Part shown: positions 34,848 to 43,300 of the stretch, piece by piece
How positions within the stretch are numbered: position 1 is the first letter of the stretch
Layout: every line of letters starts with the position of its first letter
Source: Ignavibacteriota bacterium
GTDB taxonomy: Bacteria; Bacteroidota; Ignavibacteria; UBA10030
Direction: 5' to 3'
Assembly (NCBI GenBank): GCA_963727825.1
Contig: CAVSHO010000009.1
Location: forward strand, 576,001-640,000
Length of the DNA stretch: 64,000 nt
Notes under the pieces: generated by a model
The model's input: only the letters and a program-made list of their open reading frames with translations
What the model was told of the DNA's origin: nothing
The model's database searches: none
Program-made: the position numbers and the translations under genes

Positions 34848-36350
34848 TTACTTTTTCTCTTCTCCGAACACCAAAGCTTCATACACAAATAACTCCGCAT
34901 CCTTCCAGCCATCCCAGCTAATGCCTGCTTTATCCTGAGCGCAGTGGCCCAGGAATTCTTCTTTTGTCCAACCGGTTTCTGCAGCCACCTGCGGCAGGAA
35001 TGTTCCAGAGCGGTATCCTTTTCGAATGTAAATACCATGCTTGCCAAGTTCTATTTCATCTACCGAGCTAATTCGCCGCATCGGCGTTAGCACGGAAATT
35101 TCTATTTCAAGTTCTGGAATTTCGCTAGATTCAACTGGTAAGAAGCGAGAATCCTGTGTTGACGATGCAATTGCCATTTCCTGCACAACTTTGTAAAGCG
35201 GCTCGCTCGCATCGAATCTCCCAATGCATCCGCGTAAGTTGCCGTTCTTTTTCAGAGTGACAAACGCACCGCAGTTTGTTTTCAATATCGGTGACAGATT
35301 CTTTTCATCTATTTCAGGCCTTGTATTATTCTTTACATAATGCTCAATTGTATTACGCGCAATTGCAAGCAGATTCTTTTTGTCTTTATCAGTAAGCTTG
35401 AATTCCGATCGTCCCTTCTTCTCTTTCAATGAGACAGTGATTGCGTTGTAGCCAACAACTCGGTTTTTATCTCCATATTCCGAATCACCGGAATTTTTAT
35501 ATTGAATATGAGTAAATGCAACATCTGCATTTCCTTCCGTCATGTAAAGTAATGTCAACACACTTGTCCAACCGCAAAGGCAGGTAGCAAGATTGGAAAT
35601 ACCTTTCTGCTCATAATTCACCATCGAGCGTATAAGATTCTCGGGTGAGTTAGTAAGAATCGCATCGGCAGTCGCTTTGTCTACGTTCTTTGCATCTGAG
35701 TAGGATGGATAGTGCGAAAAGTCTGTGCTGATGACAAAGAGATTTTTCGTGTTTAAATATGGATGCAATGCCTCGGCAATACGCCGGCAGGTTTCCGGAG
35801 ACTGAGTTCCAAGAATAATTGGAACAATTCTAAAATCCTTCTTCATTCGATATTGAAGAAAAGGAAGCTGCACTTCCAGACTGTGCTCGCGCGCATGTGC
35901 ATCCGTTCGATTGGAGAAAACACTGTTATTCTTGATAAGTTGATCGGCAAGCTTTGTGTTGACCTTCACCGTGCCCAGCGGCGTTATAAAATTGCCCTGT
36001 GAGTAAATCGATGCACCTTCAAAAGCAACATAGTGACTTGAACCAAGAATGAAGATGTTCTCATATTCTTTTGTCGGATCAATCTGGTTAAATGACGAAG
36101 CTGCCACTTCGCCGGAAAAAACATATCCCGCATGTGGAGAGATGATAGCAATAATGTTTTGAATATCTTTAGATGGGACAGCATTTGTGAAGAGCTGCTT
36201 CAATGTTACATTGAGTGTGTCCTGCCCAGCGGGATAGAACGAACCTGCAACTGCAGGCTGCCTGTCGATATTATTTTCTTGTGATTGGCAATCGGCACAC
36301 AAAAGCAGGAGGCAAGAAGCAATGACCGTAAGAGTCTTAGTTCTGTGCAT
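34848..36350 (-). CDS. AmmeMemoRadiSam protein B (Memo) - protein A (AMMECR1) fusion with signal peptide
   Basis: RQPAVAGSFYP, PHAGY, EHSLEVQLPF and STDFSHY (Memo); GAFVTL..LRGCIG, GTFLPQV and KAG (AMMECR1). Confidence 0.92.
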   Translation of the reverse strand: MHRTKTLTVIASCLLLLCADCQSQENNIDRQPAVAGSFYPAGQDTLNVTLKQLFTNAVPSKDIQNIIAIISPHAGYVFSGEVAASSFNQIDPTKEYENIFILGSSHYVAFEGASIYSQGNFITPLGTVKVNTKLADQLIKNNSVFSNRTDAHAREHSLEVQLPFLQYRMKKDFRIVPIILGTQSPETCRRIAEALHPYLNTKNLFVISTDFSHYPSYSDAKNVDKATADAILTNSPENLIRSMVNYEQKGISNLATCLCGWTSVLTLLYMTEGNADVAFTHIQYKNSGDSEYGDKNRVVGYNAITVSLKEKKGRSEFKLTDKDKKNLLAIARNTIEHYVKNNTRPEIDEKNLSPILKTNCGAFVTLKKNGNLRGCIGRFDASEPLYKVVQEMAIASSTQDSRFLPVESSEIPELEIEISVLTPMRRISSVDEIELGKHGIYIRKGYRSGTFLPQVAAETGWTKEEFLGHCAQDKAGISWDGWKDAELFVYEALVFGEEKK

Positions 36351-37681: not shown

Positions 37682-38452
37682 ATGACATCACTCGCTAATA
37701 CTATTGTTTTCATAACTGGTGCCAGCAGCGGCATCGGACGTTCTTGTGCACGAGCATTTGCTGAAGCCGGCGCAGACCTCATTCTCGTCGCACGCCGTAA
37801 AAATCGGTTAAAAAAAATCGCGGATGATTTAAGGAAACAGTTTAACACCGAAATATTTATTAACGAATTAGATGTGCGTGACAATCGTGCTGTAGCGAGG
37901 TTTTATAAACAACTTTCTGCTGAATGGCGGGATATAGATATTCTCATCAACAACGCCGGATTAAGCCGCGGACTAAATAAATTATGTGAGGGAAAATTTG
38001 AAGACTGGGAGGAAATGATCGACACGAATGTTAAGGGGCTGCTCTACGTTAGCCGCACTGTGCTTCCCGGAATGGTAGAACGCAAGAAGGGCACAGTCAT
38101 CAACATCGGTTCCGTTGCCGGACATGATGTCTACCCAGGCGGAAACGTGTACTGTGCAACCAAGCACGCTGTTGACGCGCTTACGAAGGGCATGAGGATG
38201 GATTTAGTTGATACACCAATTCGCGTTTGCACAGTTGATCCGGGATTAGTGGAAACAGAATTCAGCGAAGTGCGCTTCCACGGTGACAAGGAACGCGCGA
38301 AGAAAACATATCAAAACATGATACCTCTAACGCCTGATGATATTGCAGATGCTGTTTTATTCGCAGCTACACGCCCGCCGCATGTACAAATTGCCGAGTT
38401 AATTATCATGCCGACTGCACAGGCTTCGGCAACGCTTGTACATCGCACATAA
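37682..38452 (+). CDS. SDR oxidoreductase (YdfG-like)
   Basis: TGASSGIG, NNAG, YCATK and DPGLVETEFS motifs. Confidence 0.92.
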   Translation: MTSLANTIVFITGASSGIGRSCARAFAEAGADLILVARRKNRLKKIADDLRKQFNTEIFINELDVRDNRAVARFYKQLSAEWRDIDILINNAGLSRGLNKLCEGKFEDWEEMIDTNVKGLLYVSRTVLPGMVERKKGTVINIGSVAGHDVYPGGNVYCATKHAVDALTKGMRMDLVDTPIRVCTVDPGLVETEFSEVRFHGDKERAKKTYQNMIPLTPDDIADAVLFAATRPPHVQIAELIIMPTAQASATLVHRT

Positions 38453-38530
38453 TAACAGGTTAGAAGTAATTCTCAATGCGAAAAGAATTTGAGAGGTTTA
38501 CGGGGAAAATTTTCGGGGATTTTGATGCGT

Positions 38531-39160
38531 TTATTCAATAATCTTATTTTTAAAAGCATATTTAACCAGCTCGATATTTGACCTTGCATTAAGTTTAGTA
38601 AAAATACGCTTACGGTAAGAGTTGACTGTATTCAAAGAAACTTTATACTCTCCGGCAATTTCTTTGGAACTTTTTCCCTCTGCCAGTCTTCGCAACACTT
38701 CATATTCGCGGTCGGTCAAATTGTGATGCTTTGGCTTACTTATTGCTTCATCTATAATATCCGGAAGTTCCTGCTGAACTTCCGGACTGAAATATTTCAT
38801 ACCTCGTGTAACCGTACGTACTGCTTTGATTAATTCTTCCCCCGGTTCGGCTTTTGTTAAGTATCCTGATGCCCCCGCTTGTAATATCCTGCGCGCATAC
38901 TGCGATACGGGAACCATGCTCAAGATCAATACCGGCACCTTGGATTCAATGGTTCTAATCGAGCTAAGAATTTCAAGTCCGCCTTTTCCCGGAAGATTGA
39001 TATCAAGAATAATAATATCCCATTTGTTGTTTTGTATCTGCTCCATTGCGTCTTCGTAATTTCCTGCTCGTGCAAGTTTCGTAATATCGAAATTGTCAGT
39101 TAAAATGTGAATGATTCCTTCACGCGTAAATTCATGATCATCTACAACAAGCGCTCTCAT
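38531..39160 (-). CDS. NarL/LuxR family response regulator
   Basis: VVDDH, LDINLP, GASGYLTK receiver motifs; LTDREYEV...TVNSYRKRIFTKL HTH. Confidence 0.95.
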   Translation of the reverse strand: MRALVVDDHEFTREGIIHILTDNFDITKLARAGNYEDAMEQIQNNKWDIIILDINLPGKGGLEILSSIRTIESKVPVLILSMVPVSQYARRILQAGASGYLTKAEPGEELIKAVRTVTRGMKYFSPEVQQELPDIIDEAISKPKHHNLTDREYEVLRRLAEGKSSKEIAGEYKVSLNTVNSYRKRIFTKLNARSNIELVKYAFKNKIIE

Positions 39161-39162
39161 AG

Positions 39163-40002
39163 TTAATTACTCTCCGCCATTGACACCTTTGCCACATCTG
39201 CTACCACTGATTGATTCCCGTTGTGGATCGGGGCATTTAAAATAATGCATGTGCCTTTCCCGAGATTACTCGTGATTACAATTTTCCCGCCTAATATCCG
39301 GGCGCGTTCCTGCATGCTCATAATTCCTAATGACTCAGGATGAACAATCATTGCCTGATCAATACCTTTACCGTTGTCTGCTATTTCCACCTGGAGATCG
39401 CCGTTGTTTAATCGCATTGTAACTTCAGCGTGTGTAGCTTCTGAATGACGGGCAACATTGGTTAATGCTTCTTGAATTATCCTATAGACACCCGTTGTCA
39501 TCGCATCATTCAGAGATGGAAGCTTATCTGTTTGTTTGAGCCCTACTTCGATTGAAGTCCTTTTTGTGAATTCATGTATATGCCATTCCACCGCCGCTTC
39601 CAAGCCGACAGTATCTAATATTTTGGGCCTCAATCCGGAAGAGATTCTCTGAACAGTTTTCGTCGTTGTATCGACCATAGCCCGTATAGCTTCATACCGT
39701 TCTTTTACAATACTCTTCTTCATTGCAGTATGTTTTCCCAGCCAGAGCAGGTCATACTTGATGCCTGTCAGCGCGCCGCCGAGTTCATCGTGCAGTTCTC
39801 GGGCAATCTGTTTTTGTTCTTCCTCCCGTGCAGCTTGCAGCTTTTCTGAAAATATTTGCATTTGGCGAAGCCGTTCGCGCTGAGCGGCTTCTATTTTACG
39901 ATGGCTCCGTACCATCATCAGCACAAAAAATAAAAACAATCCTAGCATTACAATTGTAACGCTGAAAATTGCTATAAGTATTATGTTTGAGTCTGAGGAC
40001 AC
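39163..40002 (-). CDS. HisKA_3 histidine kinase with a single N-terminal TM and no sensor domain
   Basis: TM at residues ~7-31; IARELHDELGG, QEALTNVARH, DNGKG, LGIMSMQERA and GKGT motifs. Confidence 0.93.
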   Translation of the reverse strand: MSSDSNIILIAIFSVTIVMLGLFLFFVLMMVRSHRKIEAAQRERLRQMQIFSEKLQAAREEEQKQIARELHDELGGALTGIKYDLLWLGKHTAMKKSIVKERYEAIRAMVDTTTKTVQRISSGLRPKILDTVGLEAAVEWHIHEFTKRTSIEVGLKQTDKLPSLNDAMTTGVYRIIQEALTNVARHSEATHAEVTMRLNNGDLQVEIADNGKGIDQAMIVHPESLGIMSMQERARILGGKIVITSNLGKGTCIILNAPIHNGNQSVVADVAKVSMAESN

Positions 40003-40622
40003 AAGAATCCTATTGCAAAAAGTACATTAAAAAGGACCTTAAGACTCCAATCTATAGAAGAAACAAGTAAAAAATTTTCTACAGAAAAATGGATGAGAAT
40101 CCCGCGTAACGCAATAATTAACAATGTTCCTGCATAATAGATCACACAGGAAAGAAGTATCCAAAAACGATGATTATTTATTAAGGACTGCGTTCGATTT
40201 CCAATGACAATAAATAAAGTATATCCCGCACCGAGCGTAAGAATGACCTGTGAAGCACATGCTGTAACCGAATATAATCCATTTAGAGGCTCAAACGTGA
40301 ACTTTGCAATGATCCAAAAAATTACGTAAAGCAACATTAGTACTTGAAATAATTTCTTTATCCGACGCGATTCCTGCCAAAAAGTAACAATAGACATGAT
40401 AAATATATATTCTATGAGATAATAAGCATGGTGAAGTCCAAGAGCAAATTGATATCCCCTAACGAACCATATAAAATAAATGTCTGCCGCAAATGCAAAT
40501 ATTAGATAAAAAAGTATAATATACATTTCTCGGTGTAATACCTTTATTTTCGAAATTCCTACACCGATCGGTAAAACAGAACTGAAGATTGATATATACG
40601 TTAATAATGGATATGGATTCAT
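39981..40622 (-). CDS. Uncharacterised 7-TM membrane protein
   Basis: Seven hydrophobic segments in 213 aa; overlaps the kinase start by 22 bp. Confidence 0.82.
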   Translation of the reverse strand: MNPYPLLTYISIFSSVLPIGVGISKIKVLHREMYIILFYLIFAFAADIYFIWFVRGYQFALGLHHAYYLIEYIFIMSIVTFWQESRRIKKLFQVLMLLYVIFWIIAKFTFEPLNGLYSVTACASQVILTLGAGYTLFIVIGNRTQSLINNHRFWILLSCVIYYAGTLLIIALRGILIHFSVENFLLVSSIDWSLKVLFNVLFAIGFLCPQTQT

Positions 40623-40822
40623 CTGCTATGAATATAGAAGTCGTTCTTGAAATATGAACTCTAAATATCATAAGTCAATCAACAGAATGTCGTTCCATCA
40701 ACAAATAAAGTCTACGACACTTGAATATTGATACGGTGGACATCGCTTATCGTACATTTCCACCACATTATATTATGACTTTTAAGATAGCAAATGAATC
40801 TCGCTCTTGCAATCTAAGTATC

Positions 40823-41194
40823 TTAATTACCACACCAGGGGGGACAAAGATCTACCGGACCAGCCAAAACAGTTGGAACCATATCCTTTCCATATTTATC
40901 AACTCCAACAATCGCGAATCCAGATCTGCCGTTTACATGTTTGGCATAATACATGCGAACTCCTACACAGCCGGGTTGCTTCATGGTTTTTTCTACAACA
41001 TCCTTTCCAAAGTAATGAACAAGTACATCATTCGACGAAACAGAGATGCGGTGTACGTTTGTCAGAGCGGCTAAATTCTGTGAAGCACTTGATTGTCCTG
41101 CATTAATAGATTTATCGGTTGATGGATAAACGAAGAACATGATCACGCTTATTGCGAGGATCGAGGCGACAGCAACAATTTTCTTTATAGACAT
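40823..41194 (-). CDS. Small secreted or anchored protein ending in CPPWC
   Basis: AAGGAG RBS, signal-like N-terminus, YFGKD..QPGCVGVRMYY..VGVD..GKD core and C-terminal DLCPPWCGN. Confidence 0.82.
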   Translation of the reverse strand: MSIKKIVAVASILAISVIMFFVYPSTDKSINAGQSSASQNLAALTNVHRISVSSNDVLVHYFGKDVVEKTMKQPGCVGVRMYYAKHVNGRSGFAIVGVDKYGKDMVPTVLAGPVDLCPPWCGN

Positions 41195-41499
41195 TTGAAA
41201 TCTCCTTAAGAAGATGATTAGTTTTTTTTATTTATTCACGATCAATAGACAAGAATGTATATAATGGTGACATTGGAAAACAATACGGTGGGGAGCGCGT
41301 TGGCTGCGATTTACAGATTTCAAACATTGTAGTCCTTTCAATGTTTTTTATGATCAATGCTAACGAAAACTGTGGGTCAATTTTTTGTTCAGCCTGTTCT
41401 AAGCAACCTTGACAACCTTTCAAAATAGCTCAAACAACGTAAAATATTCAATACTGCATTTGTGTCAAATTGCTATACGAGTAAATTAACATGTATTCT

Positions 41500-41863
41500 T
41501 GTCGTTATTTACACTATAAGCTACACCAAAACACACTATTTGTCTGTCGTATTTTAACAAGTTGCTTGTAGCGATTTTTGTCACGTCCCTGTCGTAAAAG
41601 TACTAACGATTTGACAACATTTACACATATAGACCTAACAAAATGGTTTAAGAATATCATGTGTATACTTGTGGAAAAATCACTACAAGATTATAAATAG
41701 CAGTTATTTGGCTGTTTTTTATCACTTCGTAATAAGATAAGAGTTGACAACTTGTTCATAGTATACTGCAAAACGACAGAAGTACGTGGTAAAAATACGA
41801 CAATGTACTTGTTGTAATACGACAAGTAGAAAATTGCTTTTACTTACGTCTCCTCCGTATATT
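41500..41863. promoter_or_regulatory. Divergent promoter with mirror-image arrays of TGTCGT/ACGACA boxes
   Basis: TGTCGT at 41500, 41545 and 41590 (TGTAGC at 41567); ACGACA at 41773, 41797 and 41819; central TGTGGA-N6-ACTACA at 41670-41687. Confidence 0.7.
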
Positions 41864-41940
41864 GATTTGCGTAGATTCTGAATTCGTGATAAGAGGTGTT
41901 AGATTTTTAATAAACGTTCTATTACAAAAGTATAAAGTTA

Positions 41941-42345
41941 ATGCAAATACAAGATTATAAATCCAGGCGCGGCCTTCAATATTCATATGGACAAATATGG
42001 GAAAAGATACTGGGTAATATGAAAGAAGAATACAATCAAATATCTGCTGAAAAAATTCTTCACGAAGCGACCACGGTATTAAATGCCGCACGTCAGCATG
42101 CCTCAGAACTTTCAGAGCGCGGAGTGACGGATGAGGAGTTTCATGCCATGCGTGTTCTTATTACTCGTGTTGCTGCGCGCACATATACTTCTTCACTAGG
42201 AAATAATATCGACTTCGCTACCGAAGTGCGCAACCTTAAAATTTATAAAGAAGTCATTTTCAGAACGGCAGAAATGCAATTTGGCCACACAAACAATGTG
42301 CTGAACGAATTTAAATATGCCGCACCACATTATTCGTTTATTTGA
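41941..42345 (+). CDS. Hypothetical helical protein (start may be ATG 42019)
   Basis: Open frame with amphipathic helices (AARQHASELSERGVT); no recognised motif. Confidence 0.55.
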   Translation: MQIQDYKSRRGLQYSYGQIWEKILGNMKEEYNQISAEKILHEATTVLNAARQHASELSERGVTDEEFHAMRVLITRVAARTYTSSLGNNIDFATEVRNLKIYKEVIFRTAEMQFGHTNNVLNEFKYAAPHYSFI

Positions 42346-42505
42346 TATATCTCGCATCCAAAAGATTTATCCCAGAAATTGATAGATGTAAATGGTATTC
42401 GAGTAAGTAAAAATACTTCGTAGTACCAATTGGTTTTACATAATGTAGATTATATATAGAACCGACTACTTCTGCTTTTTACCACATTCATCAAAGGAGA
42501 TTATA

Positions 42506-43300
42506 ATGAGGCCACGCATATCCATAGCACGTATAAAATCAGTACAGAAGTTCCGATATGGCTGGGTTCCGGATGTGCCCGACCAGCGAGATCTTCTTTA
42601 TGGCGCAGTGTGTCCCGCTCCTTTAGTGCTTCCGCAAAATGTTGACTTGCGACCGACATGCTCGCCAGTGGAGAACCAAAGTACTCTCGGAAGTTGTACG
42701 GGCAATGCTCTTGCCGCTGCAATCGAGTTTCTCGAACGAAAGGACAATGTTCCGTTCGTGGATGCGAGCAGATTGTTTATCTATTATAATGAACGGGCTA
42801 TCGAGGGAACCGTCAAATCGGATTCAGGGGCAATGATACGCGATGGAATCAAAACATTGAAGAATCAGGGAGTGTGTTCCGAAATAAATTGGCCATACAT
42901 CGTTTCAAAATTTGCAATTAAGCCAAGTGAATCTTGTTACAAAGAAGCGCTGAAGCGACAAATCACATCGTACCATCGCATTCTTACGGTCGACGAAATG
43001 CGGACGTGCCTCGCCGAAGGTTTTCCGTTTGTGTTCGGGTTCACTGTGTATGAGAGTTTCGAATCGCAGGAAGTTGCGCGCTCCGGCATTGTGCAAATGC
43101 CTCAGCCGAATGAACGCTCCATTGGCGGTCATGCAGTGCTTGCCGTTGGGTATGACGATATACAGAAACGATTTATTGTCCGGAACTCGTGGGGAACCGA
43201 CTGGGGAATGAAAGGATATTTCACAATCCAGTACGACTATCTTGCAAACCGAAATCTTGCCGACGATATCTGGACGATACGTAGAGGAGAAAAGATGTAG
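42506..43300 (+). CDS. Papain-like C1A cysteine peptidase (xylellain-like)
   Basis: YGWVPD.PD.RD, Q..LGSCTGNA, SRLFIYYNER, GGHAV and VRNSWG motifs; AAGGAG RBS. Confidence 0.93.
   Translation: MRPRISIARIKSVQKFRYGWVPDVPDQRDLLYGAVCPAPLVLPQNVDLRPTCSPVENQSTLGSCTGNALAAAIEFLERKDNVPFVDASRLFIYYNERAIEGTVKSDSGAMIRDGIKTLKNQGVCSEINWPYIVSKFAIKPSESCYKEALKRQITSYHRILTVDEMRTCLAEGFPFVFGFTVYESFESQEVARSGIVQMPQPNERSIGGHAVLAVGYDDIQKRFIVRNSWGTDWGMKGYFTIQYDYLANRNLADDIWTIRRGEKM

What the first reader, a model, noticed from the sequence alone, without database searches (positions are those of the whole stretch)
38531..41194. Candidate peptide-ligand / split 7-TM receptor two-component signalling system
Seen: four co-oriented genes encode (1) a 123-aa protein with an export-like N-terminus, a compact GCVGVRMYY...VGVD core and a C-terminal CPPWC, (2) a 213-aa protein with seven hydrophobic helices and no enzymatic motif, (3) a HisKA_3 kinase with one TM and no sensor domain whose start overlaps the 7-TM gene by 22 bp, and (4) a NarL/LuxR regulator 2 bp further on. 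Established: the peptide quorum receptors AgrC, ComD and ComP carry a multi-TM sensor fused to the kinase. Inference: here the sensor is a separate 7-TM subunit that docks on the kinase helix, and the small protein, or a released disulfide-closed CPPWC peptide, is its ligand. I recall similar unannotated cassettes in Bacteroidota but know of no characterisation; this was not verified by search.
Basis: partly seen in the sequence, partly recalled or inferred. Interest (0 to 1): 0.88.

Follow-up and report, generated by a model that had tools for sequence, protein, structure and literature searches.

The report
Split seven-helix sensor kinase cassette
A four-gene cassette common in Bacteroidota pairs a histidine kinase that has no sensor of its own with a separately encoded seven-helix membrane protein and a small cysteine-motif protein, neither of which belongs to any described family.

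Summary
The four co-oriented genes exist exactly as described (minus strand: small 41194-40823, 7-TM 40622-39981, HisKA_3 kinase 40002-39163, NarL regulator 39160-38531). The small and 7-TM proteins match no Pfam, NCBIfam or PADLOC family. The 7-TM family is large: 7,389 representatives at E<=0.001. The 150 listed are all 138-261 aa, so none is fused to a kinase. In 65 related loci from across Bacteroidota, a small gene plus one to three 7-TM genes were followed directly by a histidine kinase in 60. The kinase is either HisKA_3 or PAS-HisKA, always with the same short stub and single TM helix at its N-terminus. This supports a split membrane-sensor/kinase system. It is comparative evidence only; the one complex prediction gave no verdict. 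The "peptide ligand" part is not supported. The small protein is a conserved folded domain, no processing or export genes accompany it, and 19 of 29 tabulated homologues lack any export signal. New here: this orthogroup carries a conserved upstream micro-ORF with R-S-P-P at codons 11-14 (a RAPP-like ribosome-arrest candidate) and tandem 45-bp boxes. Verdict: a real, unannotated variant of accessory-protein-dependent two-component signalling. The signal it senses is unknown.

The parts
41773..41825 (-). Three copies of the TGTCGT core, 22-24 bp apart, at -630, -608 and -584 from the small gene's ATG. They lie in the opposite orientation to the proximal boxes.
   Evidence: (D8, I25). Matching pairs occur in L002 and L004. 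L003 and L017 have one copy at a similar distance.
41484..41625 (-). Conserved non-coding block made of three tandem units of about 45 bp (TACAAnnAAyTTGTTAAAATACGACAG-like). ACGACA cores lie at -401, -356 and -311. These are candidate regulator boxes (inference).
   Evidence: The 45-46 bp spacing is kept in L001-L004, L008-L011, L014 and L017. The TGTCGT/ACGACA hexamer occurs 38 times in 15,952 bp of upstream regions and 10 times in 53,045 bp of the rest of the loci.
41232..41327 (-). Upstream micro-ORF of 31 codons plus stop, with a GAAAGGA Shine-Dalgarno sequence. R-S-P-P sits at codons 11-14 (41297-41286). It is a candidate RAPP-like ribosome-arrest or pausing leader.
   Evidence: It is present in 15 orthogroup loci, with synonymous codon changes in the RSPP codons and variable length after codon 15.
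40823..41194 (-). Small protein of 123 aa: N-terminal signal or anchor, alpha/beta core, C-terminal CPPWC.
   Evidence: mean pLDDT 70.2. No family match.
39981..40622 (-). Stand-alone 7-TM protein of 213 aa, N-terminus out and C-terminus in. Conserved H65 and E71 (TM3), W82, W103, F110-E111-P112 (outer loop), F153-W154 and C208.
39163..40002 (-). HisKA_3 histidine kinase of 279 aa: a stub of about 6 residues, one TM helix, coiled coil, DHp (H71) and CA. It has no sensor domain. Its GTG start lies 22 bp inside the 7-TM gene.
38531..39160 (-). NarL/LuxR-type response regulator of 209 aa.

Best explanation
This is a member of a widespread, undescribed Bacteroidota signalling cassette. The kinase has no input domain of its own. 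It depends on a separately encoded seven-helix membrane protein as its membrane input or regulatory subunit. The two genes overlap by 22 bp, so they are probably translationally coupled and made together. The kinase's single N-terminal TM helix is the likely contact with the 7-TM bundle. A change in the bundle would then shift the kinase between kinase and phosphatase states, and the NarL-type regulator would change transcription. Candidate sensing residues in the bundle are H65 and E71 in TM3 and the F-E-P loop on the outer face. The small CP(P)xC protein is an obligate third partner, a dedicated accessory or co-sensor. In this lineage it is exported or membrane-tethered. It is not a processed diffusible peptide. 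In this orthogroup its synthesis has extra control: conserved tandem 45-bp boxes (probably regulator sites, hence autoregulation) and a micro-ORF with R-S-P-P that probably pauses ribosomes. Shown: the gene architecture, its conservation, the fold class and topology bias of the 7-TM protein, and the homology of the kinase anchors. Inferred: every physical contact, the direction of signalling, autoregulation and stalling. The stimulus is unknown; the cysteine motif makes redox state or a metal a reasonable guess.
For: (1) The kinase is HisKA_3 plus HATPase_c with one TM helix and no other domain. (2) A kinase lies directly downstream of the small/7-TM genes in 60 of 65 loci. The breakdown is 19 of 20 for L001-L020, 19 of 20 for L021-L040, 20 of 20 for L041-L060, 2 of 2 for L092-L093 and 0 of 3 for L089-L091. 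(3) The partner kinases belong to two phospho-acceptor classes (HisKA_3 and PAS-HisKA, some hybrid). Even so, their N-terminal stub, TM helix and juxtamembrane segment align without gaps, sharing a (W/L)W..(I/V)G(T/S)..LL motif and S.QK(R/K). The anchor therefore travels with the small/7-TM pair whichever catalytic core follows. (4) The 22-bp overlap is kept in 13 of 16 loci. (5) No fused forms were seen. A search restricted to longer proteins found none. All 150 listed representatives are 138-261 aa. None of 75 six-frame matches in 201 genomes lies in an open frame longer than 292 aa. (6) The 7-TM model is confident. Lys+Arg counts average 7.9 on the inferred cytoplasmic side against 2.9 on the outer side over 56 sequences, and in>out holds in all 29 pairs tested. 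(7) Small and 7-TM matches are adjacent for 34 of 48 small-protein matches in 201 genomes. Of the 14 others, 9 were fetched. Seven of those had a weak 7-TM hit next door, and the other two had a multi-TM ORF of 214 or 229 aa there. (8) The family is large: 7,389 representatives at E<=0.001 and 3,132 at E<=1e-10. (9) Distance matrices of small, 7-TM and kinase correlate (r 0.73-0.81, 0 of 2000 permutations as high, 25 loci). This is also expected for any genes inherited together.
Against: There is no physical or functional evidence, and genomic linkage cannot give the direction of signalling. One genome (G174) has three small/7-TM pairs with no kinase next door, so the pair can exist without an adjacent kinase. 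The paralogous PAS-HisKA kinases carry cytoplasmic PAS domains that could sense on their own. The small protein has no export signal in 19 of 29 pairs while the 7-TM topology stays the same. A single geometry for small/7-TM contact therefore cannot hold across the family. Foldseek matches of the 7-TM model to GPCR-type bundles are weak (best E 0.079, TM-score 0.35-0.58), and the small model matches nothing. Only the best 150 of the 7,389 representatives were visible, so fused forms among distant members are not excluded.
Confidence: 0.55

Rival explanations
1. Feedback-modulator reading, like SaePQ with SaeS or LiaF with LiaS. The small and 7-TM proteins do not perceive the stimulus. They bind the kinase and set its phosphatase/kinase balance, returning the system to baseline after induction.
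For: The gene order (small exported protein, polytopic membrane protein, then the two-component pair) resembles saePQRS as I recall it. Conserved boxes upstream of the small gene fit an autoinduced promoter. A gap of 200 bp in the window, and up to about 530 bp in orthologues, separates the small gene from the 7-TM gene, so the two could be expressed at different levels.
Against: The window kinase would then have no input at all. The 7-TM gene is translationally coupled to the kinase rather than placed under the separate upstream control. Outward-facing conserved polar residues in the 7-TM protein (H65, E71, E111) suggest that it binds something.
Confidence: 0.2
2. First reader's reading. The small protein, or a disulfide-closed C-terminal peptide released from it, is a secreted autoinducer-like ligand that the 7-TM receptor detects from outside.
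For: In the window's lineage the small protein has an export-type N-terminus. It is always encoded with its own 7-TM paralogue and co-diverges with it. Contigs from two RNA libraries of two studies cover the small gene of close relatives. Possible autoregulation boxes would fit positive feedback.
Against: 19 of 29 homologues lack any export signal. Others are lipoproteins, which are tethered rather than diffusible. Conservation is spread over a folded core, and CP(P)xC is nearly invariant (C117, P118, P119 and C121 in at least 90% of 42 sequences). That gives little scope to discriminate among the 2-6 paralogous cassettes per genome. No processing protease or exporter was seen in the loci.
Confidence: 0.1
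3. Effector reading. The small and 7-TM genes are the output of the system, for example an envelope-stress or detoxification module, and are merely co-transcribed with their regulators. The kinase senses membrane state directly through its own TM helix.
For: Intramembrane-sensing kinases with minimal input are known, and effector genes often sit next to them (recalled: liaIH, bceAB). The G174 pairs without a kinase show the pair is not strictly bound to one.
Against: The partner kinases change catalytic class but keep the same anchor helix wherever the pair occurs. The 7-TM and kinase genes overlap. Tandem 7-TM copies (1-3) sit before a single kinase. No transporter or enzyme motif was found.
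Confidence: 0.1

Closest known systems
LiaFSR / VraTSR (Bacillota cell-envelope stress systems)
   Same: A HisKA_3 kinase with minimal extracytoplasmic input, a NarL-type regulator and a separately encoded membrane partner in one operon. NCBIfam lists LiaS among the kinase's sub-threshold hits (E 1.3e-23).
   Different: From recall, LiaS has two TM helices and a HAMP domain, and LiaF is an inhibitor with its own domain. The 7-TM and small proteins match no Pfam or NCBIfam family. They occur in a different phylum.
SaePQRS of Staphylococcus aureus
   Same: A small exported protein and a polytopic membrane protein are encoded directly upstream of the kinase and regulator (gene order recalled).
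   Different: The protein families are unrelated. SaeQ has fewer helices. SaePQ act as phosphatase activators (recalled). No homology was found here.
UhpABC (UhpC receptor, UhpB kinase, UhpA regulator)
   Same: A separate membrane receptor signals to a HisKA_3 kinase and a NarL-type regulator. UhpB is the kinase's second-best NCBIfam hit, over the catalytic core only (E 1.9e-35, far under its cut-off).
   Different: From recall, UhpC is a 12-helix transporter homologue and UhpB has its own multi-TM MASE1 domain. Here the kinase has one helix and the partner has seven.
Sensory rhodopsin II with its transducer HtrII
   Same: A stand-alone seven-helix receptor signals through lateral contact with the TM helices of a partner that controls a histidine kinase (recalled). 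The best Foldseek rows for the 7-TM model are GPCR and rhodopsin-type bundles.
   Different: The Foldseek matches are weak (E at least 0.079). A TM7 lysine is not conserved. The partner here is the kinase itself.
AgrBDCA / ComCDE / ComQXPA peptide quorum systems
   Same: A small gene product is encoded next to its cognate membrane sensor and co-diverges with it.
   Different: In those systems the sensors are fused to their kinases and belong to other kinase classes, and processing or export genes are present (recalled). Here the small protein is a folded domain, often without an export signal.
RAPP-like arrest peptides (ApdA, ApdP, the RQH family, CruR)
   Same: The micro-ORF carries R/H-S/P-P-P near its functional end, directly upstream of a regulated gene. 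RSPP is reported as a partially arrest-competent RxPP motif that is under-represented in proteomes (PMC12992588, passages and section 13 read).
   Different: The peptide is only 15-41 codons long and has no localisation signal. The published uORFs are mostly longer and carry a signal or TM segment. Stalling was not tested here. That paper's survey covered RAPP and RGPP, not RSPP.

Membership tests
HisKA_3 histidine kinases | HisKA_3 dimerisation/phospho-acceptor domain with the conserved His, plus an HATPase_c domain | tested here: met
   PF07730 40.8 bits (cut-off 24) and PF02518 50 bits (cut-off 26.4). H71 and D72 are invariant in 36 kinases.
NarL/LuxR response regulators | Receiver domain plus a GerE-type helix-turn-helix | tested here: met
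   PF00072 88.9 bits and PF00196 68 bits.
AgrC/ComD/ComP-type peptide receptor kinases | A multi-TM sensor fused to the kinase in one polypeptide | tested here: not met
   The kinase has a single TM helix. The 7-TM protein is separate in every locus.
AgrC/ComD/ComP-type peptide receptor kinases | A dedicated precursor-processing or export gene (AgrB, ComAB or ComQ type) in the cassette | tested here: not met
   The gene maps show only small, 7-TM, kinase and regulator genes. The neighbouring C1 peptidase in the window is conserved only by local synteny.
LiaFSR | A LiaF-type accessory protein | tested here: not met
   Neither accessory protein matches any Pfam or NCBIfam family.
MASE1/UhpB-type kinases split in two | The membrane part is recognisable as a MASE domain, and fused relatives exist | tested here: not met
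   The only hit is MASE3_PAS_HK at E 0.22. No fused relatives were seen.
Microbial rhodopsins | A conserved retinal-binding lysine in helix 7 | tested here: not met
   The lysine in the window's TM7 is absent from many family members (alignment).
GPCR-like seven-helix fold | Significant structural similarity of the bundle | tested here: inconclusive
   Foldseek against PDB: best E 0.079, TM-score 0.35-0.58, no row at E<=0.001. The VIA-align libraries were not available.
RAPP-like arrest peptides | An R/H/Q-x-P-P motif near the C-terminal end of a uORF that precedes the regulated gene | tested here: met
   RSPP, RPPP or HSPP sits at codons 11-14 in most of the 15 loci (RSLP in L003; HSPP lies later in L015's longer ORF), about 117-204 nt before the small gene's ATG in 14 of them (L015: 206-272 nt). 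Synonymous codon variation is seen.
RAPP-like arrest peptides | Demonstrated ribosome stalling that regulates the downstream gene | not testable with these tools
   No conserved leader RNA structure was found. Toeprinting or a reporter assay is needed.

The most novel reading that the evidence does not exclude
A very large, wholly unannotated family of bacterial stand-alone seven-helix receptors plugs laterally into single-pass histidine kinases of different catalytic classes through a conserved anchor helix. This would be a receptor/transducer design like sensory rhodopsin with HtrII, but wired straight to two-component kinases. Each receptor has its own co-evolving CP(P)xC protein as ligand or co-receptor, and that protein has moved across the membrane during evolution. 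In one lineage the partner's synthesis is gated by an RxPP ribosome-arrest micro-ORF.
Probability: 0.3. Interest if true: 0.8.

Novelty: new variant of a known kind. Interest (0 to 1): 0.6.

Why it matters
Kinases that lack an input domain and borrow one from a partner protein are known from a few well-studied cases, mostly in Bacillota and Proteobacteria. This cassette would add a major Bacteroidota example built from two protein families that no database names. It has thousands of sequence clusters and several paralogous copies per genome. It gives hypothetical genes in soil, peat and marine Bacteroidota a testable role. It offers a natural experiment in modularity, because the same membrane module is attached to two kinase classes. 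It also links a two-component system to a candidate translational-arrest leader.

Tried and rejected
Complex prediction (7-TM + kinase residues 1-62 + small residues 34-123, with small as the scored partner): the verdict was "no answer", score 0.00 in two runs, and the controls were not run. It counts neither for nor against binding.

Fused forms: none were found in a search restricted to longer proteins (weak evidence), among the 150 listed representatives or in six-frame matches.

Programmed frameshift that would fuse the 7-TM protein and the kinase: considered and set aside. Orthologues have an ATG at the position of the window's GTG, with a Shine-Dalgarno-like AGGA upstream.

Known families: the Pfam, NCBIfam and PADLOC scans found nothing for the window proteins, for distant members, or for all 42 members of alignment A1. 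Profile searches against PDB sequences gave nothing below E 0.8. The protein atlas returned only unnamed Bacteroidota clusters.

Fold of the small protein: no Foldseek match (best E 2.0). A PepSY-like fold was my guess from the strand and helix order and was not confirmed by any tool.

Leader RNA: no Rfam match in 38000-43000. No conserved structure was found by RNAalifold. Single-sequence folds showed no consistent pairing of the RSPP codons with the small gene's Shine-Dalgarno sequence, so the anti-SD idea was dropped.

The sigma-70 promoter and terminator scan was no better than shuffled sequence.

A genome-wide search for the 17-mer box gave 22 hits against 34 for the reversed control, so it is not enriched overall. 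A few near-identical copies lie in other intergenic regions, and no regulon could be defined.

Flanking synteny gave no functional clue beyond local gene order.

Public runs: no run held half of the stretch's words. The laid records are contigs of relatives, and parts without cover mean nothing.

Literature: six searches (plus 65 for arrest peptides) listed no paper describing this cassette. I judged this from titles and abstracts only.
Full report
**Observation.** The window's minus strand carries four consecutive ORFs exactly as described.
- Small protein: 41194-40823, 123 aa.
- Membrane protein: 40622-39981, 213 aa.
- Kinase: 40002-39163, 279 aa, GTG start.
- Regulator: 39160-38531, 209 aa.

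The 7-TM and kinase ORFs overlap by 22 bp, and the regulator starts 2 nt after the kinase stop. Pfam assigns HisKA_3 plus HATPase_c to the kinase and Response_reg plus GerE to the regulator, all above their cut-offs. Neither accessory protein matches anything in Pfam, NCBIfam or PADLOC. The kinase has one hydrophobic segment near residue 7-25 and then runs straight into coiled coil and DHp, so it has no sensor domain.

**The 7-TM protein.** AlphaFold2, using a 56-sequence alignment, gives a confident seven-helix bundle (pLDDT 91.7, pTM 0.88).
- Lys+Arg counts over the 56 sequences average 7.9 on one side and 2.9 on the other. This implies N-terminus out and C-terminus in.
- Conserved positions are H65 (49 of 56) and E71 (50 of 56) in TM3, and F110-E111-P112 in the outer loop (E111 in 51 of 56). 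W82, W103, F153 and W154 are conserved too, as is C208 at the cytoplasmic end of TM7 (51 of 56).
- Foldseek against the PDB finds only weak resemblance to GPCR-type and rhodopsin-type bundles (best E 0.079, TM-score 0.35-0.58, nothing at E<=0.001).
- A TM7 lysine is not conserved, so it is not a rhodopsin.
- A profile search of 1.84 billion representatives finds 7,389 proteins at E<=0.001 and 3,132 at E<=1e-10. All 150 listed are 138-261 aa.
- A search restricted to longer proteins found no relative.
- In 201 Bacteroidota genomes, none of 75 six-frame matches lies in an open frame longer than 292 aa.

The protein is therefore a stand-alone family as far as I could see.

**The cassette elsewhere.** The 7-TM protein was found in 34 of 61 related genomes, including all 15 other genomes of the genus, and usually in several copies.
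- In the 20 best loci the order small, 7-TM (one to three tandem copies), kinase, regulator is kept. The small gene was detected in 19 of 20.
- Twenty loci holding distant paralogues (18-30% identity) all have a small gene next to the 7-TM gene.
- The next gene in those loci is a kinase in 19 of 20. In L031 it is a PAS-only ORF of 367 aa.
- Those kinases are either HisKA_3 or PAS-HisKA, and some are hybrids with a receiver domain.
- L019, L020 and L041, which the window kinase had not detected, also carry PAS-HisKA kinases.

I then sampled 201 genomes across the phylum. The small profile matched 26 genomes and the 7-TM profile 38.
- 34 of 48 small matches had a 7-TM match beside them.
- I fetched 20 places where only one partner had been detected. 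All 20 turned out to hold a 7-TM-sized membrane ORF followed by a HisKA_3 kinase or, in L041, a PAS-HisKA hybrid kinase. A NarL-type regulator followed in the 19 HisKA_3 loci.
- In 18 of the 20 there was an upstream ORF in the small gene's place. Many of these keep a C-terminal CP(P)xC even where the profile was silent.

Altogether a kinase follows the pair in 60 of 65 loci. The clear exceptions are three pairs in one genome (G174), which have no kinase next door.

**The kinase anchor.** The N-terminal stub, TM helix and juxtamembrane segment of 30 partner kinases of both catalytic classes align without gaps and share a motif. The anchor helix therefore travels with the small/7-TM pair while the catalytic core is exchanged. 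I regard this as the strongest indirect argument that the helix is the interface with the 7-TM protein. The conserved 22-bp overlap (13 of 16 loci) points the same way.

**The small protein.** Its model is moderate (pLDDT 70.2): a strand, a helix and three more strands. No fold or sequence match was found. Nearly invariant residues (at least 90% of 42 sequences) are Q73, R80, Y82, G102 and C117-P118-P119-x-C121, and G97 is invariant. The earlier cysteine in GCVG is not conserved.

In the window's lineage the N-terminus looks like a signal or anchor, with a conserved V/I-x-A site. Some paralogues have lipoboxes. However, of 29 small/7-TM pairs tabulated, only 10 have a hydrophobic N-terminus. 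The other 19, including nearly all from distant Bacteroidota classes, have none. Of these 19, six were checked for in-frame stops just upstream, and all six had them. The 7-TM topology bias is the same in all 29. One locus (L092) has a signal-less copy before the 7-TM gene and a lipoprotein with two tandem domains after it.

I cannot explain how one domain serves on both sides of the membrane. It argues against a family-wide "secreted ligand" mechanism. The absence of any processing or export gene and the near-invariance of the C-terminal motif among paralogues argue the same way.

**New features upstream of the small gene.** Two conserved blocks lie in 41195-41940.
- Tandem boxes. Two or three tandem units of about 45 bp with an ACGACAG core sit about 290-410 nt before the ATG. 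They are conserved with the same spacing in at least ten orthologous loci. Copies in the inverted orientation lie further up.
- Micro-ORF. A micro-ORF with a good Shine-Dalgarno sequence starts 133 nt before the small gene (41327-41232). It occurs in 15 orthogroup loci. In most of these, codons 11-14 read RSPP, RPPP or HSPP (RSLP once). Codon use varies synonymously in all four codons. The length after codon 15 varies from 0 to 26 codons.

RxPP motifs, RSPP included, are reported as arrest-prone and depleted from proteomes. RAPP/RGPP uORFs are reported upstream of metal-homeostasis and redox genes (PMC12992588: passages found by term search and section 13 read; PMC10987492: passages read; PMC10951233 and PMC7897499: search listing only). 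I therefore read the micro-ORF as a candidate pausing leader. No conserved RNA structure supports a particular mechanism. The micro-ORF was not found in 13 paralogous or distant loci checked. Two further loci (L029, L033) gave unverified hits.

**Expression.** Contigs from two metatranscriptome libraries of two studies, 90-99% alike, cover the small gene (for example a 454-nt record over 40824-41227). They also cover parts of the 7-TM and regulator genes. These are contigs of relatives in RNA libraries. They do not prove transcription and cannot rank genes.

**Organism.** The closest public contigs are uncultured Ignavibacteria-type Bacteroidota genomes assembled from metagenomes (record titles).

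**Interpretation.** The evidence fits a split sensor. A stand-alone seven-helix protein acts as the membrane input or regulatory subunit of an anchor-only kinase, with an obligate small partner protein. This is a variant of a known kind; LiaF-LiaS, SaePQ-SaeS, UhpC-UhpB and sensory rhodopsin-HtrII are the nearest analogues. It is built from two undescribed families. Docking, the direction of signalling, the stimulus, autoregulation and stalling are all inferences. The one complex prediction gave no verdict.

Noticed in passing
window 41232-41327 (minus strand): A conserved micro-ORF with R-S-P-P at codons 11-14 and a strong Shine-Dalgarno sequence, upstream of the small gene. It is found in 15 orthogroup loci with synonymous codon changes and is a candidate RAPP-like arrest leader.
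   Followed up: partly
window 41484-41625 and 41773-41825: Tandem boxes of about 45 bp with a TACAA..TTGTTAAAATACGACAG core, conserved in spacing among orthologues. Inverted copies 22 bp apart lie further upstream.
   Followed up: partly
L086:3043, L088:2962, L085:2776 and 2913 (own genome, other contigs): Near-identical single or double copies of the same box element lie in other intergenic regions. They sit next to a small exported protein, an ECF-type sigma factor gene and a stand-alone receiver gene. This may be a shared regulator site or a small repeat.
   Followed up: partly
L021 (own genome, contig 9, about 415 kb before the window): A second cassette in the same genome, with a signal-less small protein and a PAS-HisKA kinase. 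Its 7-TM gene is broken into pieces of 193 and 68 aa (one in-frame TGA), and a second small-like stretch lacks an intact ORF. It may be decaying.
   Followed up: partly
L004, L005, L013, L040: The 7-TM gene is duplicated in tandem (two or three copies) between one small gene and one kinase gene.
   Followed up: no
L089-L091 (genome G174): Lipoproteins with two tandem small domains and no CP(P)xC, each followed by a 7-TM gene, with no kinase adjacent. This genome has 9 7-TM matches and 6 small-protein matches.
   Followed up: partly
window 41941-42345 and 42506-43300 (plus strand): Transcribed divergently from the cassette are a 134-aa protein with no family and a papain-family (C1) peptidase. 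The 134-aa gene and the SDR gene at 37682-38452 stay near the cassette in 6-7 of 9 genus loci despite rearrangement.
   Followed up: partly
window 34848-36350 (minus strand): A 500-aa protein that fuses a Memo-like domain and an AMMECR1 domain behind a lipoprotein-like N-terminus.
   Followed up: no
window 40616-40629 and 40787-40800: A 14-nt inverted repeat (93% complementary) pairs the region just after the small gene's stop with the 7-TM start-codon region. One RNA-library contig skips 40629-40783. This may be chance.
   Followed up: no
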